A DNA stretch of 64,000 nt from Planktothrix pseudagardhii (GCF_904830925.1 NZ_LR882967.1:3362106-3426105), one strand, 5' to 3'; positions 10,993 to 47,585 are shown, counted from the first letter of the stretch. Made by a program: numbers and translations. The notes: generated by a model not told the origin, from the letters alone.

Positions 10993-11042
10993 ATTAACTG
11001 AATTTCAAGTGTCTTTATTTTGGGTTTCTTCGGGTGAGAACG

Positions 11043-11061
11043 GGGCGGGAAAAACCCGCCC
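11043..11061. terminator. GC-rich stem-loop (GGGCGGG-AAAAA-CCCGCCC) between convergent genes
   Basis: Perfect 7-bp stem with a 5-nt loop, lying between the 3' ends of the 10384-10992 (+) and 11072-17539 (-) genes. The flanking U-tracts are poor. Confidence 0.4.
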
Positions 11062-11071
11062 AAAAGTCTAA

Positions 11072-17539: not shown

Positions 17540-17545
17540 AAGATT

Positions 17546-17585
17546 AAGTAATTAGTAATCAGTAATTAGTAATCAGTAATTAGTC
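17546..17585. repeat. Heptamer tandem repeat (AGTAATT/AGTAATC)n in the intergenic region between the two RTX genes
   Basis: agtaattagtaatcagtaattagtaatcagtaattagt. STRR-like. Confidence 0.85.
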
Positions 17586-17684
17586 GTAGGGACAGGTTCA
17601 TCCAGATGAGTGATTATTCACAAAGATCTAAGAGAACCTGCCCTTACCAGCTATTTGTACCAATAGTTAATCGTCAACTGTCAA

Positions 17685-20600
17685 CTAGATAATGACAAAA
17701 TCACTAGGCGTAATTAAGGTACTAATATTGCTGGTTGCTGGATCAATAGACGGTAAAATTCCTAAATCAAAAGCCGGGAGACTATCATCACTTAAATTTG
17801 GATCATAGCCCATCACATAAGCACCCGGGAAAGCGGCATAAGACAAGTTATTGCGATAGACAAAGAAAGCGGCAGTATCACTGGAACCTTTTTGATTTTT
17901 CAAAGCTGCATTGACCGCTTGAACATTATCAAAGGTATCTTGGAAAATGATCACTTGTTTATTACTAATATCATCCCCTGTAGAACCCAGATTAGAAACG
18001 ATTATTCCTTGTAGAGGAACAACGGTTCCTTCTGCGGTGGTAAAACCGGGGAAACCAAGAGAACTAAACAGGAATCGATCATCGCCATTAACATTAAATT
18101 CTGTGATCACATCAACGCCTTCTGCGGGAGCTAAATAGTAGTAAGAATTATTACCCACATTCCCAATTAAACTATCAGCCCCGGAGCCTCCAGCTAAGGT
18201 ATCATCATCTTCACCACCAAAGATTGTGTCATTGCCACCATCCCCAAAGATGACGTCATTACCAATTCCCCCAAACAAACTATCTAAGCCATCTCCAGCA
18301 TAGATAGTATCTTCTCCAAAATCACCCAAAATCGAGTCATTTCCAGCTTCACCAAAGATGGAATCATCTCCCGTTCCTGCTGAAACGCTATCTGCCCCTG
18401 AACCACTACTAATAGTATCGTCTCCATCTCCACCGGTGATAGAATCATTGCCATCACCAGCAAAAATGGTGTCGTTATTCTCTCCGGCATCAATAGTATC
18501 GTTATCTGCACCCCCGAGAACTAAGTCTCGACCCACTCCGGCAAAAATTAGGTCTTGTCCTTCTTCTCCATACAGAGAATCATCTCCAGCATTTCCAGTG
18601 AGGGAATCATTTCCACTGCCCCCTAAAAGGGTATCGTTCCCAATACCACTAATGAGAATATCATCATTATTCCCACCGGAGAGTAAATTACTATCATCTC
18701 CAGCAACTAAGGTGTCATTCCCATCTTCTCCTAACAAGGTATTGCGACCTGCACCTCCATCCAGAGAGTCATTTCCTTGACCTCCAAATAGAGAATCATT
18801 CCCAATTTGACCCAGGAGAATATCGTCTTCTTCATCTCCTTGCACAACATCATTTCCTTCTCCCCCATCGAGAGAATCTCGTCCGCTTCCTCCTTGTAAA
18901 ACATCTCGGTTGCCTAGTCCTAAGAGGGTATCATTTCCAGCAAATCCTCTGATATTTTCACTTAAACCACTACCTGTAATGAAATCATCGCCGTCCGTAC
19001 CGGAAATAATATCATCAACAATGGTGATACTAAAGGCATTCTGGGTTGTCGTCCCAATGTTATCAGTGAGAACGAAAAGAAAGTCGTCTTCTCCTGATAG
19101 ATTTCGAGAATTATATTCAATGGAACCGTTGTTAATATTTTCTTGAGTAAACCTCTCTCCCACATTAATAACTTGAGGTGTAGACCCGATGGCTTGTAAA
19201 TTCCCTAAGCTGGGTTCTTGAGTAATTTGGTAAAAAATTTCATTCGGGGGATTATCAGGGTCTACTGCCAAAAGATTTCCAGCAGTAAGATTTTCCACAT
19301 CATTAAGCGCAATAATAATCCCATTATTCACTAATAATGTCGGGGGAACATTAACAGTGATTAAGACTTGAGCCGTGGACGTTAAGCCATAACTGTTTTG
19401 AATGGTATAGGGAAAGGTTGATGGCCCTGTAAAACCTGGAATAGGGGTGAACGTAATATTTCCTCCAGAGGTAATCGCTACACTACCATTGGCAACTGTC
19501 CCGGTACTGACTAACGTGAGTTGACTTCCTTGGGGGTCGGTGTCATTTACTAACACGTTAAAGGTGACAGAACCATCGGGAGTTCGTTTTACGGTGTCAT
19601 TTTGAGCAATGGGGGGTTGTAACGGGGGAGTGGTTGGCGTCGGTGGAGTCGTTGGTGTGGGAGTTGTTGGTGTGGGTGGTGTTGTTGGGGTGGGAGATGT
19701 TGTTGGTGTGGGTGGTGTTGTTGGAGTCGGTGGTGTTGTTGGAGTCGGTGGTGTTGTTGGTGTGGGTGGTGTTGTTGGAGTCGGTGGTGTTGTTGGAGTC
19801 GGTGGTGTTGTTGGAGATGGAGTTGGAATCGGAATAATCGTACCGGAAATGGGAGTAAAACTATCCGCGTTGATGGTGGTGCTATTTACCCCAATGAGAA
19901 CGGCAATATAATCTCCTGCACTGCCGTTTCTAATAATCGTATTCCCGGCATTTTCAGCACTTTGGGTAATCGATAAGTCACTAAATTGTAAACCCCCAGC
20001 TAAACCAATGCGATCGCCCAATTCAAAATCATTCACAATTTGAGCGTCTTCTAAATTCCCTCCTCCACTTTCGGGAGTCATCACGAAGGTATCATTTCCT
20101 GAGCCACCTGTGAGGGTATCAATGCCTTTACCACCCCAGAGAAAATCATCTCCAGTTTCACCCGAAATTTGATCATCTCCTTCGCCTCCGAAGGCAGTAT
20201 CGTTACCAACGCCACCAAATATTGTATCGTTGCCTTGATTTCCTTGGAGACTATCAGCACCGTCATTTCCAAACAACAAGTCTGCTTCGTCTCCGCCTGT
20301 TACCGTATCATTTCCAGCATCCCCCCAGAGGACATCACTACCTTTATCTCCATAGACAAGATCATTGCCTTCTCCACCTCTAACACTATCGCCTCCTTGA
20401 CCTCCATAAAGGCTATCATTTCCCAAATTCCCAATGACGGTATCGTTTCCGAGTTGTCCTAATCCAGTATCATCTCCTTCACTACCATCGAGAAAATCAT
20501 TATCCTTGCCGCCATTGAGTTCGTCGTTACCTTCTCCTCCGGTGAGGCTATCATTTCCTTCATTACCGTAGAGGGTATCATTGCCTTCATCCCCTCGAAG

Positions 20601-21320
20601 TTCATCATTTCCCGCTAAACCAAAGATGGTATCGTCTCCACCTAAACCGTTGATCACATCATTTCCAGAGGAACCTGTAATATAATCGCTGGTTTCTGTT
20701 CCTTTACCAATTCCTTCAATAATAATCGGGCGATTCCCCGCTAACACTTGAATAAAAACTTGGGCTGGGGCGGTTCCTTGTTCAATCGTATAACTAAAAC
20801 TATCGACTCCAAAAAAATTCGGGTCAGGAGTATAAGTAAAAATTCCAGCCCCATTAAACACTAAAGTTCCATTAGAAGTTGAGCTAAATTGAGCAATACT
20901 GATACTGGTTCCACTTCCTCCGGGAATAGAATCATTTTCCAGAACATTAAAAAAAGTTGCTTGTTCAAAGTTCGTCTGAAAAAAGTCATTATTAGCAATC
21001 GGAGCCGGATTTGTCCCGCCACTTCCAGAAGGTGTAGGTGTAGGGGGTGTGGTGGGGGATGTGGTGGGGGGTGTGGTGGGGGATGTTGTAGGAGGTGTTG
21101 TGGGGGTGGGAGATGTTGTGGGGGTGGGAGATGTTGTTGGGGTGGGTGCTGGGGGATTTTGAGGGACGAAAATTACATCACCATTGGCACCAGGTAACGT
21201 TTCTCCAACTAACCCGGTGAAGCTTTGAAAGATACCCGGAAGTTCTGTCGGAAAAATTAACAGGGTTTCCTCTGTATTAATAACTCTGGCCCTAACAGTA
21301 TTAATTGCTGCACTTGTCAT
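17685..21320 (-). CDS. Large secreted RTX-repeat protein (1211 aa) with Pro-Thr linkers
   Basis: Dense GGxGxDxxx repeats ([24 protein letters not shown]...). Two PT-rich linkers. The N-terminus MTSAAINT... resembles that of the upstream giant gene. Confidence 0.85.
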
Positions 21321-28013: not shown

Positions 28014-31000
28014 TTATTTTTTTGTTAAATTAATAATAGCAAGAACTAACTCATCAGGTTCTATGGGTTTGGCGAGGTGAACTTGAAATCCAGCCGCTAG
28101 AGCTAAAGCCTGGTTCGTTTCTCCAGCATAAGCTGTTAAAGCGATCGCAGGAATGGATGATGTTTTTCTGACTTCTGCAATTAACCCATAACCATCCATT
28201 TCTGGCATCCCAATATCCGAGATTAACACATCCGGCGAAAATTCCGACATCAAACCCAAAGCTTCCCGTGCGCTGTTAGCAACTCTCACTTCAGCCCCAG
28301 CTTGTTCTAATATAAATTCGACTAAATCCCGAATATCAATTTCATCATCAACCACTAAAATTTTTAACCCCATTAAGTCAATTTCCTCAGTCTCTATTGT
28401 TGGAGATTGAGGTTGTTCCCGCTCATAAGCCATTAAAGGTAACTGGACGAGAAACACCGCACCTTGTCCTTCTCCTAAACTATCAACGCTGACTGTTCCT
28501 CCATGTAATTCTGTGAGATGGCGAACAATGGCTAATCCCAATCCTAAACCACCAAATTTACGAGTTGTTGTACTATCTTCTTGACGAAAATAGTCAAAAA
28601 CAAAGGGTAAAAATTCAGAATTAATTCCTTTTCCCGTATCTTTAACTTGAATTTGAGCTTGACCTTCTCGACACTCTAATTGCACCTCGACAACGCCTCC
28701 AGAAGGAGTAAATTTAATCGCATTCGATAACAAATTCCACATCACTTGTTGCAACCGAGTTTTATCTCCTAAAACATTGATAAAAGATTGAGATTCCGGG
28801 AACAAAGCCTCGGGACTTCTCAAAACTTGTCGCAGAGGAATCACCCCCATACCTTCGCCGGGAATCACCTCAAACGTCACCTGAATTCCCTTTGCTTCTG
28901 CGGCTAATTTCACGGTTTCTAAAGCGGCTTGAATGGTGGAAATTAAATTAACGGGCTCCATATTTAACGCCATTTTTCCGCGTAAAATTCGAGAAATATC
29001 TAATAAATCTTCAATCAATTGGGTTTGTAATTTGGCATTGCGTTCAATCGTTTCCAGGGCGCGGGCGGTTCCTGCTGCATCAAATTTGCGAGTTTGTAAC
29101 AGTTTTGTCCAGCCTAAAATCGGATTCAACGGCGATCGCAACTCATGGGATAAAACCGCTAAAAATTCATCTTTGATTCGGTTTGCAACTTCTGCTTCTT
29201 CCCGGGCGGCTCGTTCACGGGTTAACAGTTTTTCTCGCTCTTGTTCGGCTTGTTTTCGTTCAGTAATATCTCGACAAATCGCTTGTACCGTTGGTAAACC
29301 ATTGAGGGTAAACAGAGTCGCACTGACTTCAACCGGAATTCGATGTCCCTGTTTGGTGCGATGCACCGATTCCACCACCAAACGCTTCTGCTGAAGTAGT
29401 TGTTCTATATTGGCTTGGGGATAAACCCAGGATGAACCCACAATATCCGCCACAGACATCGTAAGCAGTTCTTCCCGACTAAAGCCTAACTTGTTACACG
29501 CTTGTTGATTAACTTCGATAAACGTTCCGGGTTGGTAATCTGGCGTGAGATGGTACACCAGTACCCAATCTTCCATGCCATGAAATAAGGTAATAAACCG
29601 TTGTTCGCGTTCTCGTAGTTCCTCTTCGGCTCGTTTGCGATCGCTAATATCCAAAAACGCACCAATAACTCCCCGAATTTTCCCCCCCTCGTCGCGTAAG
29701 GGAACCGCCCGACCATAAATATACCGAACTTCCCCATTTTCAAAGACAAACTCAAATTCTGCCTCAACATCCTCCCCCGTGCGTCCCGCTATTTGCATGG
29801 GTAACTCTTCCAGGGGAATATCAACCCCCTGGTGTTGAATTGTGAATAAAAAAGGATAACTTCCATCTTCCGGGGTAGCCGTAACAATGCTACCAGACGG
29901 TAACTGTACCAATTGATGGGCAGCCCGGTTTGCTGTCATCTCATGACATTGGGGATCGTGGGCAACCCAAACCGCAGCCGGAACCGTTTCCATAAAGGTT
30001 CTCAATTCCTCAGCCCGTGCATTAGCCAAGGCTTCACTTTGGCGTAAGGCTAATTCCACTTGTTTATGGTCGGAAATATTAACCCCAGAACAAGTAACTC
30101 CGATGATTTCATCCTCCGTATTGCGTAGGGGTTCAATGGTTAAATCAAAATAATATTTCTGTTCCTGGATAATCAAACAAAGTTCCTCCCGTGCCCCGGT
30201 AGCGGTTTCTAAAACCTGGCGTTTGAGTTGAACCAGTTGGGATGCTTGTTCTTGTGGGAGTAAGTCAAAATCACTGCGACCGATAATTTCATCAACAGAT
30301 TGTTGAAGAAAGGGATTATAAATCCAGGTGTAGCGTAAATTTTGATCTTGATTAAATAAAGTAATCGGTGCACTTTTAAGGGCAACTCGCAATCGTTCTT
30401 CACTTTGGAGTAAGGCTGCTTCTGATAATTTGCGATCGCTAATATCACTAAAAGAAATCGCCACACCATCACCAATTTTAACACACATATTCCGAAACCA
30501 ACCCATAATTCCTTCCGATTGGTAACATAACTCAATATCGTGGGGTTCTCCGGTTTCTACTACTCGCACATAACGTTCAAATAAATCACTATTGGTTTTA
30601 TTCCCTGGAAGCACTTCTAAAAGTCGCTGACCAATTAACTTTTCAATGGTTTGGTGTAAAACGTCAGCCGCTTTCGGATTAACATAAGTCCACTCAAAAT
30701 CAATAATTTTGCCCGTTTCATCTCGCACACTTTGCAAAATAGTAAAGGCATCTAAGGATAATTCTTGAGCCACCCGAAATCGTTCTTCGCTTTGACGCAG
30801 GGAAACTTCAGCTTGTTTTCGTTCGGTAATATCTCGCCAATAAACGGCTAAACCTTCTTGATAAGGATAAACGTGGGCTTCATACCAAAATCCCGGATGA
30901 ATCGTTGAAGTTTCAAAATGTTCTGCCTCCTGATTTTCCATGACTTGATGCAGTTTTTGAGCTTCAATAGATTTTAAAAAATTAGGATAAATTTCCCATA

Positions 31001-33398
31001 GGTTACACCCTAATAATTCCCCTCTGGTTTTCAAAAATAGCCGTTCTGAAGCTTGGTTAATATAGGTAAATCGCCACTGATAATCTAAAGCAAAAAAGCC
31101 ATCGGTAATACTTTCGAGAATATCAATCACCTGGGCTTTTGTGGTATTTAATTCTTGTTCTCGAATCGTCGCTTCTTGTCGCAGTCGAGTAAGTTCTAAA
31201 ATGGAGTGGACACGAGCTAAAAGTTCACGGGCTGAAAACGGTTTAATTAGATAATCATCAGCCCCGGCTTCTAAGCCTTCAATAGTCGCTTCTTCTCCAG
31301 CCCGAGCAGATAAAAGAATAATGGGGATTTCTTGAGTTCTGGGATCTCGTCGTAGGGTGTGCAGCAGTTCAAAACCATCTAATTCCGGCATCATAATATC
31401 AGAGACGACTAAATCCGGTTTCTGACGATGAATCGCTTCTAAGGCTGCTAACCCATGATGAACGCTTTCGACTTGATAGTGTTGACTCAACAAACGCTGC
31501 ATATAATTCCGCATATCCCCATTGTCTTCTACCAGCAGAATGCGGGAAGTAGGGGATAAAAAAGGTTTTAACGGGGCGATGCAAGACGGATTTTCCCAAC
31601 TCATTACCTCTTCTAAATAAGCTGTGGCTTCTAGGGGTGAGGAATTGTAGCGAGTTGTCTGACAAATCTGATCAGTATCCAGATGAGCGCAGCCAGAGGG
31701 AATGGACACGATAAAACAACTCCCTTCCCCTGGAATACTGCTAATTTCAATCGTACCTGCGTGCAACTGGACTAACTCTTTGACTAAGGATAGACCAATG
31801 CCCGATCCCTCATAGGTTCTGCCTTGCGCTTCGGAAACACGATGAAACCGTTCAAATACATGAGGAATGTCTTTGCTGCGAATCCCAATTCCGGTATCTT
31901 GAACATTCAGTTGAACGTGATCCCCCATCCACCGCAGAGACACTGTAATTTTGCCTTTGAAGGTAAATTTAAAGGCGTTTGAAAGGAGGTTGAGAACTAT
32001 TTTTTCCCACATTTCCCGATCAATATAGATAAGTTCTGGGAGGGGAGGACAATCGATGATCAACTGCATTCCGGCTCGTTCAATAGCCGAACGAAACATA
32101 CTTGCAAGTTCTGTGGTAAACCTTGATAAATCAGTGGGTTCATAAACCGCTTGAAATCGTTCGGCTTCCAAACTGGAAAAATCGAGGAGAGTATTCACGA
32201 GTTTGAGAAGTCGTAAGCTATTGCGTTTGGCGACTTGTAATTGTTCCTGTTGATCAAGGTTGAGAAGGTTGGGATTGAGGAGGGTTTCTTCGAGGGAACC
32301 CAAAATTAAGGTTAATGGAGTGCGGAATTCATGACTAATATTACTAAAAAAAGCAGTTTTGGCTCGGTTAAGTTCTGCTAAGGCTTCTGAGCGTTGTCGT
32401 TCGGCTTCGTAGGCTTGAGCATTGGCGATGGCGATGGCGACTTGATTAGCAATTAAATCAAAAAACCCCCGATAGGAGTCATCAAAGGCACGTCGGGGGC
32501 TGATTCCTAGGATTAAAAATCCGGCTAACTGAGATTGGGGCTTTTGGGTTAAGGGGATGACCATCGCAGCGTGGGGAGGTTCATTCCAAGTCGCCTTTGG
32601 TAACGTCTGGAACCGGGTGTTTAAGTCTTCTAATAGCAGCATTTCCCCAGTTTGGTTAACAAGATTTAACTGCCAAGGATCAGAATTTTCGGTTAAGTTA
32701 ATCGGGGATAGGGCAATGGGATGATTCGGTTCTATTCCGGCGGTTCCCGCAAGATCAGCTTGTTTGCCATCTTGAATGCGATACAGCAGGGCGAAGGGGA
32801 TATCCATGTTGTTAGATGTGATCGCCTCAATTGCACGCTGACAAGCTATTTCAACGGTTTTAGCATCGGTGGTGGCTGTGGCAATTTCTCGCAGGGTTTG
32901 CAGTCGTCGTTCTCCGATAATTTGTTCGGTGGTTTCGGTTACAGCACAAAAAATACCCCCGACTCCGCCACTTTCGTCGGTAATCGGACTATAGGAAAAG
33001 GTAAAATAGGTTTCTTCGGTATAACCGGAACGGTGCATGATCAGCATCAAATTTTCCGACCAGGTAGGCTGACCTGTATGCAGCACACTTTCGGCTAAGA
33101 GTCCCACGACATCCCAGACTTCAGCCCAACATTCTTTCGCAGATTGTCCGAAAAATTGGGGATGTTTTCGGGTTCCTAAAATGGGGCGATACGCTTCATT
33201 GTAGAGGTTAATGTATTCTTCGCCCCACCAAATAAACATCGGATAGCGAGAGTTTAAGATAATACTGACGGCGGTTCGTAAACTCTGAGGCCATTGTGAC
33301 GGTGGGCCGAGAAGGGTTTTTGACCAATCTAAGGTACAGATTAACTGATGAATTTCCCCTTGCCCACTGAACGAATCTGTTGAGAGGTTAATGTTCAC
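28014..33398 (-). CDS. Multi-domain hybrid sensor histidine kinase (1794 aa) with two HisKA/HATPase_c units, multiple PAS/GAF domains and two receiver domains
   Basis: First H-box SHEFRTPL with a following ATPase (DTGIGI...GSGIGLSL). REC1 motifs ILLVEDNGDMRNY...LVVSDIMMPELDG. Several PAS-like repeats. Second H-box SHELRSPLNPILGW with a second ATPase (DTGKGI...GGLGLGLAIV). C-terminal REC2 motifs ILVVDDEIDIRDL...VLISDIGMPEMDG. Confidence 0.9.
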   Translation of the reverse strand: MNINLSTDSFSGQGEIHQLICTLDWSKTLLGPPSQWPQSLRTAVSIILNSRYPMFIWWGEEYINLYNEAYRPILGTRKHPQFFGQSAKECWAEVWDVVGLLAESVLHTGQPTWSENLMLIMHRSGYTEETYFTFSYSPITDESGGVGGIFCAVTETTEQIIGERRLQTLREIATATTDAKTVEIACQRAIEAITSNNMDIPFALLYRIQDGKQADLAGTAGIEPNHPIALSPINLTENSDPWQLNLVNQTGEMLLLEDLNTRFQTLPKATWNEPPHAAMVIPLTQKPQSQLAGFLILGISPRRAFDDSYRGFFDLIANQVAIAIANAQAYEAERQRSEALAELNRAKTAFFSNISHEFRTPLTLILGSLEETLLNPNLLNLDQQEQLQVAKRNSLRLLKLVNTLLDFSSLEAERFQAVYEPTDLSRFTTELASMFRSAIERAGMQLIIDCPPLPELIYIDREMWEKIVLNLLSNAFKFTFKGKITVSLRWMGDHVQLNVQDTGIGIRSKDIPHVFERFHRVSEAQGRTYEGSGIGLSLVKELVQLHAGTIEISSIPGEGSCFIVSIPSGCAHLDTDQICQTTRYNSSPLEATAYLEEVMSWENPSCIAPLKPFLSPTSRILLVEDNGDMRNYMQRLLSQHYQVESVHHGLAALEAIHRQKPDLVVSDIMMPELDGFELLHTLRRDPRTQEIPIILLSARAGEEATIEGLEAGADDYLIKPFSARELLARVHSILELTRLRQEATIREQELNTTKAQVIDILESITDGFFALDYQWRFTYINQASERLFLKTRGELLGCNLWEIYPNFLKSIEAQKLHQVMENQEAEHFETSTIHPGFWYEAHVYPYQEGLAVYWRDITERKQAEVSLRQSEERFRVAQELSLDAFTILQSVRDETGKIIDFEWTYVNPKAADVLHQTIEKLIGQRLLEVLPGNKTNSDLFERYVRVVETGEPHDIELCYQSEGIMGWFRNMCVKIGDGVAISFSDISDRKLSEAALLQSEERLRVALKSAPITLFNQDQNLRYTWIYNPFLQQSVDEIIGRSDFDLLPQEQASQLVQLKRQVLETATGAREELCLIIQEQKYYFDLTIEPLRNTEDEIIGVTCSGVNISDHKQVELALRQSEALANARAEELRTFMETVPAAVWVAHDPQCHEMTANRAAHQLVQLPSGSIVTATPEDGSYPFLFTIQHQGVDIPLEELPMQIAGRTGEDVEAEFEFVFENGEVRYIYGRAVPLRDEGGKIRGVIGAFLDISDRKRAEEELREREQRFITLFHGMEDWVLVYHLTPDYQPGTFIEVNQQACNKLGFSREELLTMSVADIVGSSWVYPQANIEQLLQQKRLVVESVHRTKQGHRIPVEVSATLFTLNGLPTVQAICRDITERKQAEQEREKLLTRERAAREEAEVANRIKDEFLAVLSHELRSPLNPILGWTKLLQTRKFDAAGTARALETIERNAKLQTQLIEDLLDISRILRGKMALNMEPVNLISTIQAALETVKLAAEAKGIQVTFEVIPGEGMGVIPLRQVLRSPEALFPESQSFINVLGDKTRLQQVMWNLLSNAIKFTPSGGVVEVQLECREGQAQIQVKDTGKGINSEFLPFVFDYFRQEDSTTTRKFGGLGLGLAIVRHLTELHGGTVSVDSLGEGQGAVFLVQLPLMAYEREQPQSPTIETEEIDLMGLKILVVDDEIDIRDLVEFILEQAGAEVRVANSAREALGLMSEFSPDVLISDIGMPEMDGYGLIAEVRKTSSIPAIALTAYAGETNQALALAAGFQVHLAKPIEPDELVLAIINLTKK

Positions 33399-42473: not shown

Positions 42474-43586
42474 TTAACGGTGAAATCGTTTTGCTAAACT
42501 TATAAAGCCCAAATAACCTAATTGATTCAACAGTTTCAGCCATTCTCCCAAGGACGCTGATTTTTTATAGTAGATACGAATGAGATGGATAGCAGCATCT
42601 CCAATTATTTTCATGGAATTTAAGCGTTTTCCTTCTGGATATTTTTCTTTTGAAATGACTTGAATAAATTCACGCGATACATCACGATTTAATTTACCAA
42701 GTCTATATTCAAAAATATCACTCTCTGTTCCCTTTCTACTGGTTAAAATCAAGGTACTTTGCCCTAATAAACTCCGTAGTTCGTTAGCTAATTCTTTAGG
42801 ACTTTCTGTGTCTTCTAAACCATCAATAACTATTAGAGTTTGCGTGTTATTTAATATCTTACTGATTTCAATTTTACACTTTTCAATATCTTGTAATACG
42901 AAATGAGGTAATTTGAGTTCACTCCCAATGTCTTTAATAGCATCTTTTAAGGTTAAACGAGAATCTCGTGAGCTAGAATTAGTTTGATTTTGTTCCGGAT
43001 AATATTGATATACTTTTGCTCTGACCCAAGCAATTTTTGAGAATAATTTAGCATGATAAGCTTGGGATACTAATTGATGACAAAGGGCAGTTTTTCCTAA
43101 ACCACCGATACCCAGTATTCCAATTATCCCTAAAACTTTATTTTTTTGTTCAGATTCTAGGTATTTTAAGAGTTCTTCTATTTCAGGATTTCGTCCTACA
43201 AATTGACCATAAGTTTTTTCTTTTTGCCAAGTTTCTTCACTATACTCTTTAGGAGTACCACCAAAAGTATTGGTTTGTTGATAGCCTTTACAATTTCGTT
43301 CAATAGCTGCTTTAAAATTCCTTTTAGTTACTTTTTCTCCTAATGCTTCTGAAAGTTTATCCCAAAATTTATTTCCTACATCTTTTTGAAGATAGTTTTG
43401 ACTATAAGCATGGCTCTCAGCTATTGTATTGTAAGTTTTTTTCTGCCAAGATTCTCTAAAAATAATTGTCTCAATATCACTAAGTTTCTCTCCAAATTTT
43501 TCATAAAAACATCTGTTGGCTACTTCCAAAGCTTCATCTTCACTTAAGTTGCTGAATTGCTCTGTCATAAGATTAAACACCCTCAC
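42474..43586 (-). CDS. STAND-type P-loop NTPase (NB-ARC-like), truncated after the NTPase module
   Basis: Walker A GILGIGGLGKTAL. Walker B region LIVIDGLED. A ~130-aa N-terminal domain precedes the NTPase. No C-terminal repeat array. The gene is very AT-rich. Confidence 0.6.
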   Translation of the reverse strand: MRVFNLMTEQFSNLSEDEALEVANRCFYEKFGEKLSDIETIIFRESWQKKTYNTIAESHAYSQNYLQKDVGNKFWDKLSEALGEKVTKRNFKAAIERNCKGYQQTNTFGGTPKEYSEETWQKEKTYGQFVGRNPEIEELLKYLESEQKNKVLGIIGILGIGGLGKTALCHQLVSQAYHAKLFSKIAWVRAKVYQYYPEQNQTNSSSRDSRLTLKDAIKDIGSELKLPHFVLQDIEKCKIEISKILNNTQTLIVIDGLEDTESPKELANELRSLLGQSTLILTSRKGTESDIFEYRLGKLNRDVSREFIQVISKEKYPEGKRLNSMKIIGDAAIHLIRIYYKKSASLGEWLKLLNQLGYLGFISLAKRFHR

Positions 43587-43615
43587 CTGACTTTACCTGA
43601 CTTTACCTGACTTCT
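43586..43615. repeat. 10-mer tandem repeat (ACCTGACTTT)x3 immediately upstream of the STAND gene start
   Basis: cacctgactttacctgactttacctgactt. Confidence 0.85.
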
Positions 43616-43854
43616 CATTATATCAGATGTTAAAGTCCTGATTTTAACTAGATTTTTGCTGTATCGACCATTTTGACTCGCTACGAGAACATTGATTTAT
43701 AGGTTTAAGGGTTCAGTTTTAGTTCATTTTATTTCGCCAAGTAGATTGAACAAACTGAGCCTTCAAACCATTCATTATCAAGCATTCTGGAAATATACGA
43801 GTAAGCACAGTTGGCCAACGAGCTTCTCATCCCATTATTGAGAGGTAATCTGTG

Positions 43855-44028
43855 ATGAAACGTCTTTCTTTAACCCAAATTTTACTGATTGTGAGTTTAA
43901 TGGTTCATACTGTAAGATTCATGGGTGATATTTTGCCTTATAATCAACCTGCTTTTGCTTCTCCAGATCCTTTTGAAGTTAAGGTTAATCATAATTGTCC
44001 AGATGGTAATACAGGAGGAACAAAGTAG
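43855..44028 (+). CDS. Candidate small secreted peptide (57 aa) not in the ORF track
   Basis: ATG at 43855 preceded by GAGAGG. Predicted signal peptide MKRLSLTQILLIVSLMVHTV, then RFMGDILPYNQPAFASPDPFEVKVNHNCPDGNTGGTK. Sits on the + strand between two minus-strand genes. Confidence 0.3.
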   Translation: MKRLSLTQILLIVSLMVHTVRFMGDILPYNQPAFASPDPFEVKVNHNCPDGNTGGTK

Positions 44029-44089
44029 TTTGTAATTCTAACTAGATTTGCCTAGATTATAGGCAGTCTAGTTTGGTTTTATAAAATCA

Positions 44090-45646
44090 TTATTGTTTAA
44101 CTTTCTGCTTTCCTAATTCCTGCCATTCTTTGATTTCTGGCTGATTATCTGGAGCAGAATAAGTTAAACATTTTTGCCATTCTATCTGTGCTGGCTTTTG
44201 TTCAGCTTCTAATACTTGCGCCATTAAACAGTAAGGGGGTGCTAGATTTAACTTTAAGTCAATAGCTTGTTTTAGAGATTGTTTAGCTGCTGATAATTGT
44301 CCTAATTTTAATTGTGACCAGCCTAAATTTTTATATAGATCATGTTTAGGGTTAATCTCAGAATTAGGATTAATTTTTAAACTGGTCTCAATTAAAGTAA
44401 TAGCTTGATTGTAATTACCTGTTAAGATTTCTAAACGAGCTAAATTATTGTAAGATTCGTCCAAATTTCCTATATCAATAGCTTTTTGATATTCATTTTT
44501 GGCTGAACCTAATTGTTCTTGATTGTCATAAAGTAATCCTAAGTTATGATGAGCCGAAACAGATTTATTATTGAAAAATAAGGCTAAACGATATTGCCAT
44601 AAAGCACTATTATAATTGGATTGCTTAAATGCTTGTAAACCACGATCATTAAGTTGTCTAGCAATTTGAGGTGATAATAAAGATAAAATTAGAGAGGTTA
44701 CAACTAAAAAGGTAGCTATAGGAATTGTATTTAATAAAAATTTTTGTTTTTGAATTAAAAAGAAATAATGCCAATAATTTTGGTGTTTTATTAGCTCTAA
44801 AATTTGATTAATATTTTCGTTTTTTTCTTGTTCTATCGCGTCTAAGTATTGTAAAATAATTGATGTATTCTGAGGACGTTTACCCGGATATTCTTCGATC
44901 ATATAGTTAATTAATTTTGCTAAAGATTGAAATTCATCTTTAAGTGTGTTTTTGGCAAAATCTTCAGGATTATTTCCTGTTAATAAACTCACAAAAGTGC
45001 GCCCTAATGCAAAAAAATCTGATTGAGGAAAACATAAACCTGTAAATTCTTGTTCTGGTGGTGTATATAGGGGAGATACAATTTTTGTACCAGATTCATT
45101 TTTACCCATCTTAATTAAATAAGTTGTTGTCATTTGTCTAACAGCACCAAAGTCAATTAAAACTAAAGTTCCCTCAGACTTTAGGATAATATTTTCTGGT
45201 TTAATATCTCGGTGTATCAGTTTCTCTTGATGAATTAGAGCAATAGTTTCCGTTAGTTGTTTTAACCAATTTATTGCCATTTTTATATCGGTAATTTTTT
45301 GATTTTTTTCTAACCACTGTTCTAAATTTTCTCCAGTAACTTTTTCCATGACTAAACAATGTAATGGCGTTAAATAAACTTCTGGGGTAATAGTAAAGTA
45401 ATCATAACCTTTAGGGATACCAGGATGAGCTAATTTTTGTAATACTTTTGCTTCTTGTTGAAACAGAGAAATGATTTTATTTTGATCTTTTTCTGGATAA
45501 TATTGAAATTTATTCTGCTGGAGTATTTTTAATACTTTATGTTCTTGATCTTGGAGATCATAGACTTCCCACACTTCTCCAAATCCTCCTGTTCCTAAAA
45601 GACAGATTACCTGATATCTATGATTAATTATTTTTCCTATTTCCAT
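44090..45646 (-). CDS. Ser/Thr protein kinase with transmembrane segment and C-terminal TPR repeats
   Basis: Kinase motifs GTGGFGEVW, VLK and HRDIKPENIIL, plus DFG and PPE. TM segment (IPIATFLVVTSLILSLL). TPR-like C-terminal units. The start overlaps the upstream STAND gene by 23 bp. Confidence 0.85.
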   Translation of the reverse strand: MEIGKIINHRYQVICLLGTGGFGEVWEVYDLQDQEHKVLKILQQNKFQYYPEKDQNKIISLFQQEAKVLQKLAHPGIPKGYDYFTITPEVYLTPLHCLVMEKVTGENLEQWLEKNQKITDIKMAINWLKQLTETIALIHQEKLIHRDIKPENIILKSEGTLVLIDFGAVRQMTTTYLIKMGKNESGTKIVSPLYTPPEQEFTGLCFPQSDFFALGRTFVSLLTGNNPEDFAKNTLKDEFQSLAKLINYMIEEYPGKRPQNTSIILQYLDAIEQEKNENINQILELIKHQNYWHYFFLIQKQKFLLNTIPIATFLVVTSLILSLLSPQIARQLNDRGLQAFKQSNYNSALWQYRLALFFNNKSVSAHHNLGLLYDNQEQLGSAKNEYQKAIDIGNLDESYNNLARLEILTGNYNQAITLIETSLKINPNSEINPKHDLYKNLGWSQLKLGQLSAAKQSLKQAIDLKLNLAPPYCLMAQVLEAEQKPAQIEWQKCLTYSAPDNQPEIKEWQELGKQKVKQ

Positions 45647-47396
45647 GATTAATCACACTGAATAAATGACTAATATTTATCTGAAAATATCCTAACCCTG
45701 AATCTGAATCCACTTGTAATAATAAATTTTTTAATTGAGTATATAAATCTTCAGAACAGTTTAAATTAATAAGTTTGTCTATAATTTTGTTCGATAGTTT
45801 AGGATTAATTAAGTTTTTATTAGGATTAGGATAAACTAAAGGATGAGTCCTCAATAATCCTATATTTTGCCAATTTTGTGTTTTTATGACTGCTATAATA
45901 TTAGCGCAAAACTTTTCCATAAATAAATTACTAACATATTTCTTAATAAATGGAGGTAGGCTATAAGTTATTTCTGTATTATTAGCATCTTGAATTAAGA
46001 GCGATCGCCGTTTGAGTGATTTCATCGTATCAAGAATATCTGTCCCTGATAAATAGTGATCAAAAACTTGTTTTAACTGTTCTTGGGACAAATTTTCAGT
46101 AATAATAGCCAGTAAATAAATAATATCTATTTCCTTTGCCGATAGTTTAGTAAATGCCTGGATAATATAGTTACTAATGACATCACTTACTAGGAGTGAA
46201 CTTTGTTTAAAATATTGTAAAATATTTCCATTAAATTCTTGTTTAATATCCTGTGCTACCAGGTTAAGAACTCCAGGGTGATAACTATAACGTCTGATTA
46301 AATTAGTTAAAGATTGAGTATCTTTTCCCAATCCTTGCTGTTCAAAAATCTGGAGAGCAGATGCTGGATCTAATCCCTTTAAATCCCAGGAATAAACTGG
46401 CATTTGTTGAGATAATAACAGTTCAAATTGTCTCGGTTTTTCTTGACTTATAAAAAGCCCACAACTTTGATGAGATGTTTTAGCGATTTGGCTTAATAAC
46501 TCTCCATACTCTTCATATTCCTGGCGGTAATAACCCGCTAAATGTTCTGATTTTAAAAGTTCTTCCCAATTATCTAATATAAGTAAACAACGATGATTAC
46601 GAAAATAATCAATAATTTGTTTTATATCTCCTGTAACATTTGTAGGTTGTTCAGTTAAATCATGCCAAAATAAAGAAAAAGACTTAGGATTAGATAAATT
46701 TTTATAAATAATACACTCAAACTGATCTGTGATTTTATCTAAAAGATTTATGATTAAACTTGTTTTACCAATTCCAGACATTCCTGATAGTAAAATAACT
46801 CTTGTTTGTTTATTATTTAGCCATTCTAATAACTGATTTAACTCATTTTCTCTTCCATAGAATATAGGCTGATGGGGAAGTTCATGTAAATTAGATTTTA
46901 AGGAAAAATTATCAAATTGTTGAGGTTCATTCTCAGTTATTTTTCGCCAATCTAAATCCAGAATAGCACAATAAATTTTAAAAGCATTTACGTTAACTGG
47001 ATATATTGTTTTATGAGAAGCAAATCGGCTCCAAGTTCCCCAAGAAATATTTTGAACATAAATTTCTCCAGAATCAATCAATGTTTTAATTTTTTCTAAA
47101 AAAGTAAATTTATTATTTTTTAAAATTTCCCACTTGATTTTATCTAATTTTTCCTGTTTGTGTTCTTGAGTTTGGCGTTTATCCCTTTCAACTCGAAAAA
47201 TTTGTTCAAAATCTTTCAACCACCGAGGGTCATTATCACTTAGCTGATGCTTTTGTTGATATTCCTCAATATACCTATAACAAGCAATAACCAAAGGCCT
47301 AGTATCCTGTTCGCTGACTTTCCATTTTCTATCTGCGATCGCAGTTTGAATCTTTTGATGCCCTTCTTTCGAGGCTGTAAAGGTTTGACCTACCAT
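45624..47396 (-). CDS. STAND-type P-loop NTPase (NB-ARC/NACHT-like) with N-terminal unknown domain
   Basis: Walker A LSGMSGIGKTSL. Walker B LLILDNWEE. A ~190-aa N-terminal domain. A C-terminal winged-helix-like region with no repeat sensor. Confidence 0.65.
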   Translation of the reverse strand: MVGQTFTASKEGHQKIQTAIADRKWKVSEQDTRPLVIACYRYIEEYQQKHQLSDNDPRWLKDFEQIFRVERDKRQTQEHKQEKLDKIKWEILKNNKFTFLEKIKTLIDSGEIYVQNISWGTWSRFASHKTIYPVNVNAFKIYCAILDLDWRKITENEPQQFDNFSLKSNLHELPHQPIFYGRENELNQLLEWLNNKQTRVILLSGMSGIGKTSLIINLLDKITDQFECIIYKNLSNPKSFSLFWHDLTEQPTNVTGDIKQIIDYFRNHRCLLILDNWEELLKSEHLAGYYRQEYEEYGELLSQIAKTSHQSCGLFISQEKPRQFELLLSQQMPVYSWDLKGLDPASALQIFEQQGLGKDTQSLTNLIRRYSYHPGVLNLVAQDIKQEFNGNILQYFKQSSLLVSDVISNYIIQAFTKLSAKEIDIIYLLAIITENLSQEQLKQVFDHYLSGTDILDTMKSLKRRSLLIQDANNTEITYSLPPFIKKYVSNLFMEKFCANIIAVIKTQNWQNIGLLRTHPLVYPNPNKNLINPKLSNKIIDKLINLNCSEDLYTQLKNLLLQVDSDSGLGYFQINISHLFSVINHGNRKNN

Positions 47397-47585
47397 ACCT
47401 AGTTTTAATTCATTGTCAAGATCAGTTGAGATCAGGAATAAGCCGATCTTAGCAGATATGACAGCTTAAATCATCTCTTGGAATAATCAAGGTGTAGTGA
47501 AGCGAGAAACCTTTCTTGCCGAGGAAAGAAGGTTAAGCCTTTTCCCAATTCATTCAACCTTAATACAATAATAGGAGAACAATTT

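What the first reader, a model, noticed from the sequence alone, without database searches (positions are those of the whole stretch)
44090..47396. STAND NTPase overlapping a Ser/Thr kinase-TM-TPR gene: a split sensor architecture
The 590-aa NB-ARC protein has an N-terminal ~190-aa domain and a winged-helix tail but no repeat sensor. Its last 23 bp overlap the start of a kinase whose C-terminal half is TM plus TPR repeats. In canonical STANDs the TPR/WD40 sensor is fused C-terminally. Here it appears to be supplied in trans on a kinase, implying coupled translation and a kinase-gated NTPase, or the reverse.
Basis: partly seen in the sequence, partly recalled or inferred. Interest (0 to 1): 0.6.

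Follow-up and report, generated by a model that had tools for sequence, protein, structure and literature searches.

The report
Sensor-less NB-ARC switch paired with receptor kinase
A cyanobacterial apoptosis-type ATPase switch that lacks its own sensor sits in a conserved, overlapping gene pair with a membrane receptor kinase, so it probably takes its input from that kinase rather than from a built-in sensor.

Summary
On the minus strand, a 590-aa NB-ARC gene (45624..47396) overlaps a 518-aa kinase-TM-TPR gene (44090..45646) by 23 bp, and the kinase has no other usable start codon. The window comes from Planktothrix.

The pair is not an accident. Three further Planktothrix-lineage genomes carry the same 23-bp overlap, down to 57% protein identity. 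Searches started from either gene find short NB-ARC plus Hanks-kinase pairs in Oscillatoria, Microcoleus, Caldora, Limnofasciculus, Okeania and Anabaena. STAND and kinase distances co-vary (r = 0.91), and both genes are under purifying selection.

The "split sensor" reading is only partly right:
- A single hydrophobic helix predicts that the TPR faces the periplasm, away from the cytoplasmic ATPase.
- The same TM-TPR module is attached elsewhere to TIR-STAND, CHAT, AAA and HTH domains.
- The kinase's C-terminal domain varies between loci (TPR, WD40, periplasmic binding protein); the catalytic domain is the constant partner.

My best reading is a receptor kinase feeding a CED-4-like switch with an N-terminal HTH and no sensor, analogous to AfsK/AfsR. 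The direction of signalling and the output are inferred, not shown. I rate it a new variant of a known kind, of moderate interest.

The parts
45624..47396 (-). HTH-NB-ARC STAND gene (590 aa) with no repeat sensor
   Evidence: ORF. Pfam NB-ARC, nSTAND1 and AAA_16. AF2 pLDDT 87. Top Foldseek matches are Apaf-1, CED-4 and plant NLRs. 100% identical to a Planktothrix pseudagardhii protein.
46932..47396 (-). N-terminal domain (res 1-155): XRE/Cro-type HTH relative carrying a large insertion
   Evidence: Alignment series from a roughly 65-aa minimal form to this form. 8 of 18 aligned relatives hit HTH_31 or HTH_26, but the window copy alone does not. Confidently folded in AF2.
47082..47279 (-). Insertion of about 65 aa (res 40-105) inside the HTH domain; specific to the Planktothrix clade and L081
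   Evidence: Alignments. dN/dS 0.07-0.31, so the insertion is under constraint.
45957..46874 (-). NOD: NBD-HD1-WHD (res 175-480). Walker A GMSGIGKTS at 46758..46784. Walker B LLILDNWEE at 46560..46586.
   Evidence: Invariant G205, G208, G210, K211, D275 and E278. Secondary structure. Coordinates checked.
45627..45956 (-). C-terminal helical extension (res 481-590) ending in the invariant GYxxxN motif. It is homologous to the linker that precedes the WD40 repeats in long relatives.
   Evidence: Y570 and N574 invariant. Long relatives match the query up to res 579-586 and then carry WD40.
45624..45646 (-). 23-bp overlap of the STAND stop (TAA 45626-45624) with the kinase start (ATG 45646-45644)
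   Evidence: Identical geometry in L001, L002 and L004.
44090..45646 (-). Hanks-type Ser/Thr kinase-TM-TPR gene (518 aa)
   Evidence: Pfam Pkinase 118.9 bits plus TPR_1/2/8/11/12. AF2 pLDDT 84.5.
44831..45622 (-). Kinase catalytic domain (res 9-272) with all catalytic motifs: G18xGG, K40, E65, H145-R146-D147, N152, D165-F166-G167
   Evidence: Sequence. Invariant columns.
44672..44740 (-). Single predicted transmembrane helix (res 303-325, FLLNTIPIATFLVVTSLILSLLS)
   Evidence: Hydropathy 2.12, conserved in orthologues. The same helix position precedes the module in other fusion contexts, with K/R-rich N-flanks. Part of a long helix next to a low-confidence linker in AF2.
44096..44644 (-). TPR module (res 335-517, about 10 helices) with a conserved Cys pair (YCLMAQ...WQKCL); predicted extracytoplasmic
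   Evidence: 187 metagenomic relatives of the module.
44048..44066 (.). Terminator-like hairpin between the convergent small ORF and the kinase gene
   Evidence: It is the only terminator-like site in 43400..47800, and none lies between the STAND and the kinase.
43855..44028 (+). Conserved 57-aa small ORF with a signal peptide (…PAFA|S…) and a mature peptide of about 22 aa ending in CPDGNTGGTK. Possible accessory part; link unproven.
   Evidence: Length conserved with no indels in 5 genomes, dN/dS about 0.4-0.6. Only 7 homologues, all Planktothrix-like.

Best explanation
The two genes form a conserved, co-expressed signalling cassette of filamentous cyanobacteria.

**The kinase.** Gene 2 encodes a receptor-type Hanks Ser/Thr kinase. 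It has a cytoplasmic, catalytically intact kinase domain, one membrane-spanning helix and a TPR domain that faces the periplasm or thylakoid lumen, where it receives the signal.

**The STAND.** Gene 1 encodes a cytoplasmic, CED-4-like AP-ATPase (NB-ARC) switch. It has kept the N-terminal XRE-type HTH domain and the NBD-HD1-WHD core of the cyanobacterial HTH-NB-ARC-WD40 family but has lost the WD40 sensor.

**How they work together.** The kinase replaces the missing sensor functionally, not structurally. Activated kinase acts on the STAND, most likely by phosphorylating its NOD as AfsK does to AfsR. This controls the STAND's nucleotide state and oligomerisation. The clustered N-terminal HTH domains then give the output, either DNA binding or recruitment of another partner.

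**Shown here:** domain content, overlap, conservation of the pair, co-divergence, purifying selection and predicted topology.

**Inferred:** physical interaction, phosphorylation, direction of signal flow, DNA binding and the biological role (ordinary regulation versus a conflict or cell-death system).
For: **The pair is conserved**
- The same 23-bp overlap occurs at 88%, 81% and 57% STAND identity in L001, L004 and L002.
- Starting from the STAND, a kinase lies directly downstream in L005 (4-bp overlap) and L030 (11-bp gap). It lies within the same-strand cluster in L080 and L020, and the two are fused in L041.
- Starting from the kinase or its TM-TPR module, a short NB-ARC lies immediately upstream in L085 (two pairs), L087, L088, L099 and L111. 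L084 keeps a remnant.
- Only one assessable locus, L119, lacks a STAND.

**The link is specific to sensor-less forms**
- A kinase lies downstream on the same strand in 5 of 30 short STAND loci and 0 of 40 long WD40-bearing loci. The counts come; Fisher's p of about 0.012 is my own calculation.

**The pairs co-diverge**
- Mirror-tree r = 0.906, Mantel p = 0.0002, n = 11.
- The two pairs in one Oscillatoria genome keep their partners in both trees.

**Both genes are under constraint**
- dN/dS is 0.25-0.46 overall. The STAND's HTH insertion gives 0.07-0.31 and its tail 0.28-0.63.

**The constant partner is the catalytic domain**
- The C-terminal domains vary: TM-TPR, WD40, TM-Peripla_BP_6.
- The kinase has all catalytic motifs.

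**Topology**
- One TM helix obeying the positive-inside rule.
- A conserved Cys pair in the TPR.
- The best NCBIfam TPR matches are periplasmic lipoproteins Tgl and PilW; this is weak support.

**STAND fold**
- Apaf-1/CED-4-like, with a TM-score (normalised to CED-4 length) of up to 0.64.
- N-domain relatives hit HTH_31 and HTH_26.

**Expression**
- No terminator-like site lies between the genes. Promoter-like hits are at chance level.

**Precedent**
- AfsK phosphorylates the NOD of the DNA-binding STAND AfsR, including the Walker A Thr. This raises ATPase activity, oligomerisation and DNA binding (PMC10936776).
Against: - No experiment or co-fold shows contact or phosphotransfer.
- The nearest non-Planktothrix relatives of this STAND (L006, L007, L008, L016) have no kinase within 6 kb.
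- L084 keeps the kinase after losing most of the STAND, so neither partner is obligatory.
- The window's HTH carries about 65 aa inserted between its second and third helices and does not reach any Pfam HTH threshold on its own. DNA binding is therefore uncertain.
- In the Planktothrix clade the second Walker B acid is Asn, the presumed sensor-1 Arg is Gln and the MHD His position is Pro. The protein may bind ATP but not cycle like a canonical STAND.
- The TM-TPR module keeps company with TIR, CHAT and nSTAND1. The locus decays in some strains (L003, L084 and module c of the window). Both fit an accessory conflict system better than a transcriptional circuit.
Confidence: 0.45

Rival explanations
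1. Split sensor. The TPR repeats on the kinase dock onto the NOD of the sensor-less STAND and act as its autoinhibitory and ligand-sensing domain in trans. The kinase rides along as effector or regulator.
For: - The two neighbouring paralogous modules really are split STANDs, with an NB-ARC gene followed by a soluble TPR gene: 48744..50147 plus 50150..51487, and the module c equivalent in L001, L002 and L084.
- L145 fuses an HTH-NB-ARC of this type directly to this TPR module without a TM.
- In L005 the partner kinase carries WD40 with no TM. WD40 is the sensor type of the fused relatives.
Against: - A TM helix lies between the kinase and the TPR in the window and its orthologues, and the same TM precedes the module in almost every other fusion context.
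- The TPR has a conserved Cys pair.
- It shows no specific similarity to the soluble STAND-partner TPRs.
- The kinase's C-terminal domain is interchangeable, and includes a periplasmic binding protein.
- L145 looks like a deletion chimera from a single metagenome.
Confidence: 0.1
2. Reverse direction: the STAND is upstream and the kinase is its effector. The STAND oligomerises in response to some cytoplasmic cue and clusters the membrane kinase for trans-autophosphorylation. This would resemble STANDs with fused kinase effector domains, or M. tuberculosis PknK.
For: - Induced-proximity activation of effectors is the general logic of STANDs (established knowledge).
- Kinase-STAND fusions exist, for example PknK described as 'Kinase + MalT-like' (PMC1262709).
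- The tight gene order and overlap would favour roughly equimolar co-assembly.
Against: - The STAND has no sensor with which to perceive a cue, whereas the kinase has its own sensor domain.
- STAND effectors normally sit at the N-terminus, which the HTH occupies here.
- The short kinase-linked STANDs in L085a, L087 and L088 end right after the WHD, leaving no obvious docking region.
Confidence: 0.15
3. The cassette is a defence or programmed-cell-death module of the kind predicted for multicellular bacteria. An envelope or periplasmic danger signal is sensed by the TPR and relayed through the kinase and an apoptosome-like STAND. This is a rival about biological role and is compatible with the best explanation's wiring.
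For: - The TM-TPR module is fused to TIR-nSTAND1, CHAT and AAA_35.
- L088 lies next to a TRADD-N plus CHAT-WD40 pair.
- The kinase matches PADLOC PD-T4-6 models strongly (265 bits).
- The locus is AT-rich (GC 0.29 against about 0.39). It is patchy and decays between strains, and its N-domain is mosaic.
- Periplasm-facing sensors in STAND conflict systems have been predicted before (PMC10907252).
Against: - There is no toxic effector domain in the pair. An HTH is a regulatory output.
- PADLOC has no significant STAND-system hit for the NB-ARC protein; the best is 24.6 bits.
- The PD-T4-6 hit covers only the generic catalytic domain.
- No phage or mobile-element genes are adjacent.
Confidence: 0.2
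4. Adjacent but functionally independent genes. The STAND is a truncated leftover of an NB-ARC-WD40 gene that happens to share a transcript with an ordinary receptor kinase.
For: - It is homologous to the N-terminal half of WD40-bearing proteins.
- It has non-canonical Walker B and sensor-1 residues.
- One partner has been lost in L084, and both have decayed in L003.
Against: - The pair recurs in at least 7 genera with different kinase tails.
- The partners co-diverge.
- Purifying selection acts on every STAND region.
- The overlap is conserved down to 57% identity.
Confidence: 0.1

Closest known systems
AfsK / AfsR of Streptomyces coelicolor (Hanks kinase acting on a DNA-binding STAND regulator)
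   Same: A membrane-associated Hanks kinase with a C-terminal repeat domain is encoded near an NB-ARC-type STAND that has an N-terminal DNA-binding domain. The kinase phosphorylates the NOD and modulates ATPase activity, oligomerisation and DNA binding (PMC10936776; PMC1262709).
   Different: - AfsR has a SARP (OmpR-type plus BTAD) head and its own fused TPR sensor. Here the head is an XRE-type HTH with an insertion, and there is no fused sensor.
- afsK lies two genes away from afsR, whereas these genes overlap.
- NCBIfam AfsK and AfsR scores are far below cut-off.
- This is an analogy of wiring, not membership.
CED-4 (with CED-9) and, more generally, STANDs regulated in trans (MalT with MalY/MalK)
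   Same: The architecture is an N-terminal adaptor domain plus NBD-HD1-WHD plus a helical extension with no repeat sensor. CED-4 is among the best structural matches, with a TM-score (normalised to CED-4 length) of 0.5-0.64. Control must come from another protein.
   Different: CED-4 has a CARD and is held by a Bcl-2-type inhibitor. Here the candidate controller is a kinase, and the N-domain is an HTH.
Cyanobacterial HTH-NB-ARC-WD40 proteins (the 'alr2800-like' family; AP-ATPase clade of Leipe et al. 2004)
   Same: Same N-terminal HTH type, same NOD and same linker up to the GYxxxN motif, at 27-34% identity over residues 74-586.
   Different: Those proteins continue into about 14 WD40 repeats, and none of 40 such loci has a linked kinase. 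The protein here stops before the repeats.
Receptor-type bacterial Hanks kinases (PknB-PASTA, PknD beta-propeller, Nostoc 'kinase + ANF receptor')
   Same: Cytoplasmic kinase domain, one TM helix and an extracytoplasmic sensor domain. Peripla_BP_6/ANF_receptor versions occur among the STAND-linked partners (PMC1262709).
   Different: No STAND partner has been described for those kinases, as far as the searches here could tell.
M. tuberculosis PknK and other kinase-STAND fusions
   Same: A Hanks kinase and a STAND/MalT-like NTPase work as one unit (PMC1262709).
   Different: Those are single polypeptides in the order kinase-STAND-TPR, and all cytoplasmic. Here there are two genes in the order STAND then kinase, and the kinase is membrane-anchored.
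NTP-dependent conflict systems of multicellular bacteria (Kaur, Burroughs, Iyer, Aravind 2020/2021)
   Same: Same organisms and same domain vocabulary: AP-ATPase, HTH_VMAP-M9 in the paralogous module, TPR/WD40, TIR, CHAT, TRADD-N neighbours (PMC7159879, PMC8195603).
   Different: Term searches within those two papers found no description of an HTH-NB-ARC plus receptor-kinase pair. The kinases they describe as effectors are mostly actinobacterial and often inactive.

Membership tests
STAND P-loop NTPase, AP-ATPase / NB-ARC clade | Walker A GxxxxGK[ST] | tested here: met
   GMSGIGKTS at res 205-213. G205, G208, G210 and K211 are invariant in the family alignment.
STAND P-loop NTPase, AP-ATPase / NB-ARC clade | Walker B hhhhD followed by a second acidic residue | tested here: inconclusive
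   The motif is LLILDNWEE. D275 is invariant, the next residue is Asn in the Planktothrix clade (Asp, Glu, Gly or Ser in relatives), and E278 is invariant.
STAND P-loop NTPase, AP-ATPase / NB-ARC clade | NBD-HD1-WHD fold and a family profile above threshold | tested here: met
   Pfam NB-ARC 29.4 bits against 23.5, and nSTAND1 33.9 against 27.1. AF2 model at pLDDT 87. Top Foldseek matches are Apaf-1, CED-4 and plant NLRs at E 1e-9 to 1e-12.
STAND P-loop NTPase, AP-ATPase / NB-ARC clade | Sensor-1 arginine after strand beta-4 (the TTR-type motif) | tested here: not met
   The position is Q318 in LFISQEKP. It is Arg in P0007-9, P0012, P0017 and P0041. I assigned the position by analogy with Apaf-1, so this is an inference.
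STAND P-loop NTPase, AP-ATPase / NB-ARC clade | MHD/LHD histidine at the start of the helix after the WHD wing | tested here: not met
   The residues are L480-P481-P482, right after the beta-hairpin 468-479 of the model. P482 is nearly invariant. The positional assignment is an inference.
STAND P-loop NTPase, AP-ATPase / NB-ARC clade | C-terminal repeat sensor (WD40, TPR or LRR) in the same polypeptide | tested here: not met
   No repeat family in Pfam. The model ends in about 100 aa of non-repeat helices. Long relatives carry WD40 from about res 560.
Hanks-type (eukaryote-like) Ser/Thr protein kinase | Pkinase profile above threshold and a full catalytic motif set (G-loop, beta-3 Lys, alpha-C Glu, HRD, Asn, DFG) | tested here: met
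   Pkinase 118.9 bits against 31.7. G18, G20, G21, K40, E65, H145-R146-D147, N152 and D165-F166-G167 are all present and invariant in 16 homologues.
Receptor-type kinase with an extracytoplasmic sensor | Exactly one TM helix between the kinase and sensor domains, with positive-inside orientation | tested here: met
   One segment at 303-321, Kyte-Doolittle 2.12, conserved in orthologues. K/R-rich N-flanks precede the module's TM in other fusion contexts. AF2 shows a low-confidence linker and then a long helix. This is prediction only.
Receptor-type kinase with an extracytoplasmic sensor | Sensor domain demonstrably outside the cytoplasm | not testable with these tools
   Needs PhoA/LacZ or GFP fusions, or protease accessibility. 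Indirect support is the conserved Cys pair and best TPR matches to periplasmic lipoproteins.
XRE / Cro-C1-type helix-turn-helix | Profile match of the N-terminal domain | tested here: inconclusive
   The window N-domain alone hits no HTH family at E <= 1. 8 of 18 aligned relatives hit HTH_31 (best 1.3e-5) and HTH_26. The window copy has about 65 aa inserted between the second and third helices.
AfsK/AfsR system | STAND partner has a SARP DNA-binding head and a fused TPR sensor | tested here: not met
   No SARP, Trans_reg_C or BTAD hit and no TPR in the 590-aa protein. The 590-aa protein gives no AfsR hit, and its paralogues score only 15-22 bits against a cut-off of 1430. The kinase scores 31 bits against the AfsK model, cut-off 1300.
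AfsK/AfsR system | Kinase phosphorylates the STAND's NOD | not testable with these tools
   Needs an in vitro kinase assay with mass spectrometry.
Antiviral STANDs (Avs, bNACHT) as catalogued in PADLOC | Match to a defence STAND model, with an N-terminal toxic effector plus a C-terminal sensor | tested here: not met
   The best PADLOC hit for the STAND is PDC-S01 at 24.6 bits over the P-loop region only. The N-terminus is an HTH and there is no sensor.
PD-T4-6 defence kinase (PADLOC) | Match to PD-T4-6 models | tested here: inconclusive
   265 bits, E 2.4e-79, but only over the catalytic domain (profile positions 30-301 of 372). Thousands of cyanobacterial kinases are 43-50% identical in this domain, so the hit does not imply defence.
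   The TM predicts a different compartment. Fused relatives carry WD40. The TPR is not similar to the soluble TPR partners of modules a and c.

The most novel reading that the evidence does not exclude
The cassette is a bacterial pathway from a receptor kinase to an NLR-like switch. A periplasm-facing TPR receptor kinase senses a signal travelling in the continuous periplasm of the filament. That signal could be the small secreted peptide encoded convergently just downstream (43855..44028, also present beside the Oscillatoria and Microcoleus pairs). The kinase then gates an apoptosome-type NB-ARC oligomer by phosphorylation. This would be a prokaryotic counterpart of cell-surface receptor kinases feeding intracellular NLRs. 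It would also show that the TM-TPR module is a general extracytoplasmic sensor head for TIR, CHAT, STAND and kinase effectors.
Probability: 0.12. Interest if true: 0.85.

Novelty: new variant of a known kind. Interest (0 to 1): 0.5.

Why it matters
STAND/NLR-type switches are normally described as self-contained, with sensor, switch and effector in one chain. A conserved family in which the sensor has been dropped and a receptor kinase gene is welded to the switch gene suggests a different way to control such ATPases, by phosphorylation from a membrane receptor.

This would extend the single well-studied precedent, AfsK/AfsR, to a different phylum and architecture. It would also give a compact two-gene system for testing how phosphorylation gates an NB-ARC domain.

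The analysis also shows that one TM-TPR unit is reused as a likely periplasmic sensor head on kinase, TIR-STAND, CHAT, AAA and HTH proteins. That matters for understanding how filamentous cyanobacteria sense what happens outside the cytoplasm.

Tried and rejected
- **Exact look-ups.** Looking up the window STAND's own contig found nothing on record. Two kinase homologues, P0062 and P0118, were also not on record.
- **STAND-linked kinases as a special clade: rejected.** Thousands of cyanobacterial kinases with all kinds of tails are 43-50% identical to this catalytic domain.
- **The small secreted-peptide ORF as a general third component: not supported.**
  - It has only 7 homologues, all Planktothrix-like.
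  - It is absent beside the kinases of L099, L111, L118 and L020, and beside other TM-TPR genes.
  - It stays intact in L003, where the pair has decayed.
- **PADLOC.** It gave no meaningful defence-system assignment for the STAND.
- **Promoter scan.** It was uninformative: 20 hits against 22.8 expected.
- **Literature.** Searches for a described STAND plus kinase pair in cyanobacteria found none. The library is incomplete, so this is weak evidence of novelty.

Full report
**What is in the sequence**

The minus strand carries a 590-aa ORF at 45624..47396 and a 518-aa ORF at 44090..45646. The first ends with TAA at 45626-45624 and the second starts with ATG at 45646, so they share 23 bp. The kinase frame has a TGA 9 nt upstream of that ATG. 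The next possible start is a GTG beyond the glycine-rich loop. The N-terminus also fits the family pattern. The overlap is therefore not an artefact of start choice. The 590-aa protein is 100% identical to a protein of Planktothrix pseudagardhii.

**The STAND protein**

- Pfam finds NB-ARC, nSTAND1 and AAA_16 in the middle and no repeats.
- An AlphaFold2 model built on 38 homologues (pLDDT 87) shows these parts:
  - N-terminal helical domain, 1-155
  - linker
  - NBD, 180-340
  - HD1, 344-416
  - winged helix, 420-480
  - helical extension, 482-584
- The best structural matches are Apaf-1, CED-4 and plant NLR cores. CED-4 is itself a sensor-less member of this clade and matches with a TM-score (normalised to CED-4 length) of up to 0.64.
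- Homologues fall into two size classes. The long class, about 1180-1260 aa, continues into some 14 WD40 repeats. The short class, 420-590 aa, stops before them.
- The window protein matches the long forms up to an invariant GYxxxN motif at its very end. It is therefore the HTH-NOD-linker part of the cyanobacterial HTH-NB-ARC-WD40 family without the sensor.
- The N-domain belongs to a graded series, from a 65-aa form to this 155-aa form with about 65 aa inserted. Eight of 18 members hit the Cro/C1-type families HTH_31 and HTH_26, but the window copy alone does not.
- Walker A is intact. Three positions depart from the canonical motifs:
  - The second Walker B acid is Asn.
  - The position I take to be sensor 1 is Gln.
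  - The MHD-equivalent position is Pro.

**The kinase**

The catalytic domain scores 118.9 bits against Pkinase and has every catalytic motif. A single hydrophobic segment at 303-321 (Kyte-Doolittle 2.12) follows and is conserved in orthologues. About ten TPR-type helices come after it. AlphaFold2 gives two confident domains joined by a low-confidence linker and a long helix.

**Is the pair real?**

- *From the STAND side.* Planktothrix sp. FACHB-1365 (L001), Planktothrix sp. PCC 11201 (L004) and a metagenome at only 57% identity (L002) all have the same two genes with the same 23-bp overlap. More distant short STANDs have a Hanks kinase directly downstream:
  - Caldora: 4-bp overlap, kinase-WD40.
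  - Limnofasciculus: 11-bp gap, kinase-TM-periplasmic binding protein.
  - Anabaena and Okeania: in the same cluster.
  - One cyanobacterial MAG (L041): fused into one ORF.
  
- *From the kinase side.* The orthologous kinase-TM-TPR genes have a short NB-ARC gene immediately upstream in these loci:
  - the metagenome contig L085, whose kinase cluster (P0071) includes an Oscillatoria princeps sequence, with two pairs side by side
  - Microcoleus
  - three metagenome contigs
  
  One Planktothrix-like genome keeps only a C-terminal remnant of the STAND. One assessable contig has a GTPase instead.
- *Specificity.* None of 40 WD40-bearing relatives has a same-strand kinase nearby, against 5 of 30 short ones. 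The counts come; Fisher's p of about 0.012 is my own calculation.
- *Co-divergence.* Pairwise distances of the STAND cores and the kinase domains correlate (r = 0.906, Mantel p = 0.0002, 11 pairs). The two pairs on L085 keep their partners in both trees.
- *Selection.* Both genes, including the HTH insertion and the STAND tail, are under purifying selection, with dN/dS of 0.07-0.6.
- *Transcription signals.* No terminator-like site lies between the genes. The only one in the region sits just past the kinase stop.

**Why the TPR is unlikely to be the STAND's missing sensor**

- With the kinase domain in the cytoplasm, one TM helix puts the TPR on the other side of the membrane.
- A scan of metagenomes with the TM-TPR region found 187 relatives. 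In the 80 loci retrieved, the module sits at the C-terminus of many different proteins:
  - an uncharacterised family of about 400 aa, which is the majority
  - HTH_VMAP-M9-like heads
  - TIR-nSTAND1
  - AAA_35
  - CHAT
  - kinases
- A hydrophobic helix with a K/R-rich N-flank precedes the module in almost all of these.
- The module has a conserved Cys pair. Its best named matches are periplasmic TPR lipoproteins, which is weak support.
- It is not similar to the soluble TPR proteins that partner the neighbouring NB-ARC genes.
- The partner kinases of related STANDs carry other C-terminal domains.
- The constant partner of the sensor-less STAND is therefore the kinase catalytic domain. The TPR is the kinase's own, probably extracytoplasmic, sensor.
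The Caldora partner kinase has a cytoplasmic WD40. One metagenomic ORF (L145) joins this type of NB-ARC directly to the TPR module without the TM, which looks like a deletion chimera.

**Most likely mechanism**

I read the cassette as a receptor kinase coupled to a CED-4-like switch. A signal at the TPR activates the kinase. The kinase acts on the STAND, most simply by phosphorylating the NOD. The STAND changes nucleotide state and oligomerises, and its N-terminal HTH domains give the output.

The only well-studied parallel is AfsK/AfsR in Streptomyces. There, a linked Hanks kinase phosphorylates the NOD of a DNA-binding STAND, including the Walker A threonine. This raises ATPase activity, oligomer formation and DNA binding (PMC10936776). 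That is a similarity of wiring, not membership: AfsR has a SARP head and its own TPR sensor, and the curated AfsK and AfsR models score far below threshold here.

The reverse direction, with the STAND clustering the kinase, is possible but leaves the STAND without any input.

**Biological role**

The biological role stays open between ordinary gene regulation and a conflict or cell-death system of the kind proposed for multicellular bacteria (PMC7159879, PMC8195603, PMC10907252). Several observations lean towards the conflict reading:
- The TM-TPR module keeps company with TIR, CHAT and nSTAND1.
- A TRADD-N/CHAT neighbour lies beside the pair in Microcoleus.
- The locus is AT-rich.
- The locus is eroded in some strains.

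The HTH output and the absence of any toxic domain lean towards regulation.

**Locus context**

The pair lies between two paralogous modules. Module a is an NB-ARC gene (48744..50147) followed 2 bp later by a soluble TPR gene (50150..51487). This split is conserved in L001. Module c (42474..43586) is a remnant: relative to L001, a 1.64-kb deletion has removed the end of an HTH_VMAP-M9-NB-ARC gene and most of its overlapping TPR partner.

**Novelty and score**

Term searches within the two Aravind-lab surveys, and the general searches, found no description of a sensor-less HTH-NB-ARC gene welded to a receptor Hanks kinase. The library is incomplete, so this is weak evidence. All the parts, and the idea of a kinase acting on a STAND, are known. 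I therefore rate it a new variant of a known kind, with interest 0.5.

Noticed in passing
window 43855..44028 (+); also L001 9387-9560, L002 9625-9798, L003 9249-9422, L084 6627-6812, L086 1789-1986, L088 5481-5693 (all minus strand in locus coordinates): A 57-aa ORF lies convergent with the kinase. It has a signal peptide (…QPAFA|S…) and a mature peptide of about 22 aa with a conserved Cys (NHNCPDGNTGGTK). Its length is conserved without indels in five Planktothrix-lineage genomes, with dN/dS of about 0.4-0.6. Small signal-peptide ORFs with a loosely similar C-x-[DEN]-G end sit at the same place beside the L085/L086 pair (kinase cluster named Oscillatoria princeps) and the Microcoleus pair. 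Only 7 homologues exist in the protein database. The ORF is absent beside four other kinase-TPR genes, and it stays intact in L003, where the pair has decayed.
   Followed up: partly
window 42474..43586 (-): The 370-aa NB-ARC ORF is a deletion remnant. Compared with Planktothrix FACHB-1365 (L001 positions 10767..12409), 1.64 kb is missing. The first 311 aa of an HTH_VMAP-M9-NB-ARC gene are fused to the last approximately 50 codons of its overlapping TPR partner gene.
   Followed up: yes
window 48744..50147 (+) and 50150..51487 (+): This is a genuinely split STAND: a 467-aa NB-ARC gene followed 2 bp later by a 445-aa soluble MalT-like TPR gene. The same split is conserved in L001. A third module of the same design, with a 20-bp overlap, is present in L001, L002 and L084.
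   Followed up: partly
L089-L168 (metagenome loci), e.g. L130 2168-4588, L132 1732-3144, L141 2636-4654, L091 3320-4516: The kinase's TM-TPR unit is a promiscuous module. The same TM plus TPR follows TIR-nSTAND1 (806 aa), CHAT, AAA_35, HTH_VMAP-M9-like heads and a large uncharacterised 3-TM family of about 400 aa. This suggests a general extracytoplasmic sensor head.
   Followed up: partly
L145 2645-4627 and L041 356-3415: There are two chimeric ORFs. L145 joins HTH-NB-ARC-WHD directly to the TPR module with no kinase and no TM. L041 joins an HTH plus the first half of the NB-ARC to a kinase lacking its first approximately 35 profile positions, followed by Peripla_BP_6. Both look like deletions across an ancestral STAND/kinase gene boundary.
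   Followed up: partly
window 46932..47396 (-) compared with L004 6001-6486: The STAND's N-terminal domain is mosaic between strains. Between the window and Planktothrix PCC 11201, dS is 0.93 in residues 1-165 but 0.11 in the NOD, which suggests recombination or exchange of the HTH domain.
   Followed up: no
window 47586..48596 (+) compared with L001 4666-5811: The divergently transcribed neighbour is a CHAP domain plus RTX repeats here. At the same position in FACHB-1365 it is a Peptidase_M23 plus RTX repeats, so the cell-wall hydrolase head has been swapped on a shared RTX tail.
   Followed up: no
window 44001..46000: This is the most AT-rich stretch of the window, with GC 0.287 against roughly 0.35-0.45 elsewhere. 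That fits an accessory or horizontally exchanged island.
   Followed up: no
L088 5889-9072: In Microcoleus FACHB-831 the STAND-kinase pair lies next to a DUF1822/TRADD-like_N gene and a CHAT-WD40 gene. This is a pair of the type proposed as a cell-death or conflict system.
   Followed up: no
window 11072..21320 (-), 28014..33398 (-), 57244..62235 (-): Elsewhere in the window there are two giant RTX/cadherin/Big_9 adhesin-like proteins (2155 and 1211 aa), a 1794-aa hybrid histidine kinase (GAF, PAS, two HisKA/HATPase, receivers) and a PKS module (KS-AT-luciferase-like monooxygenase-TE).
   Followed up: no
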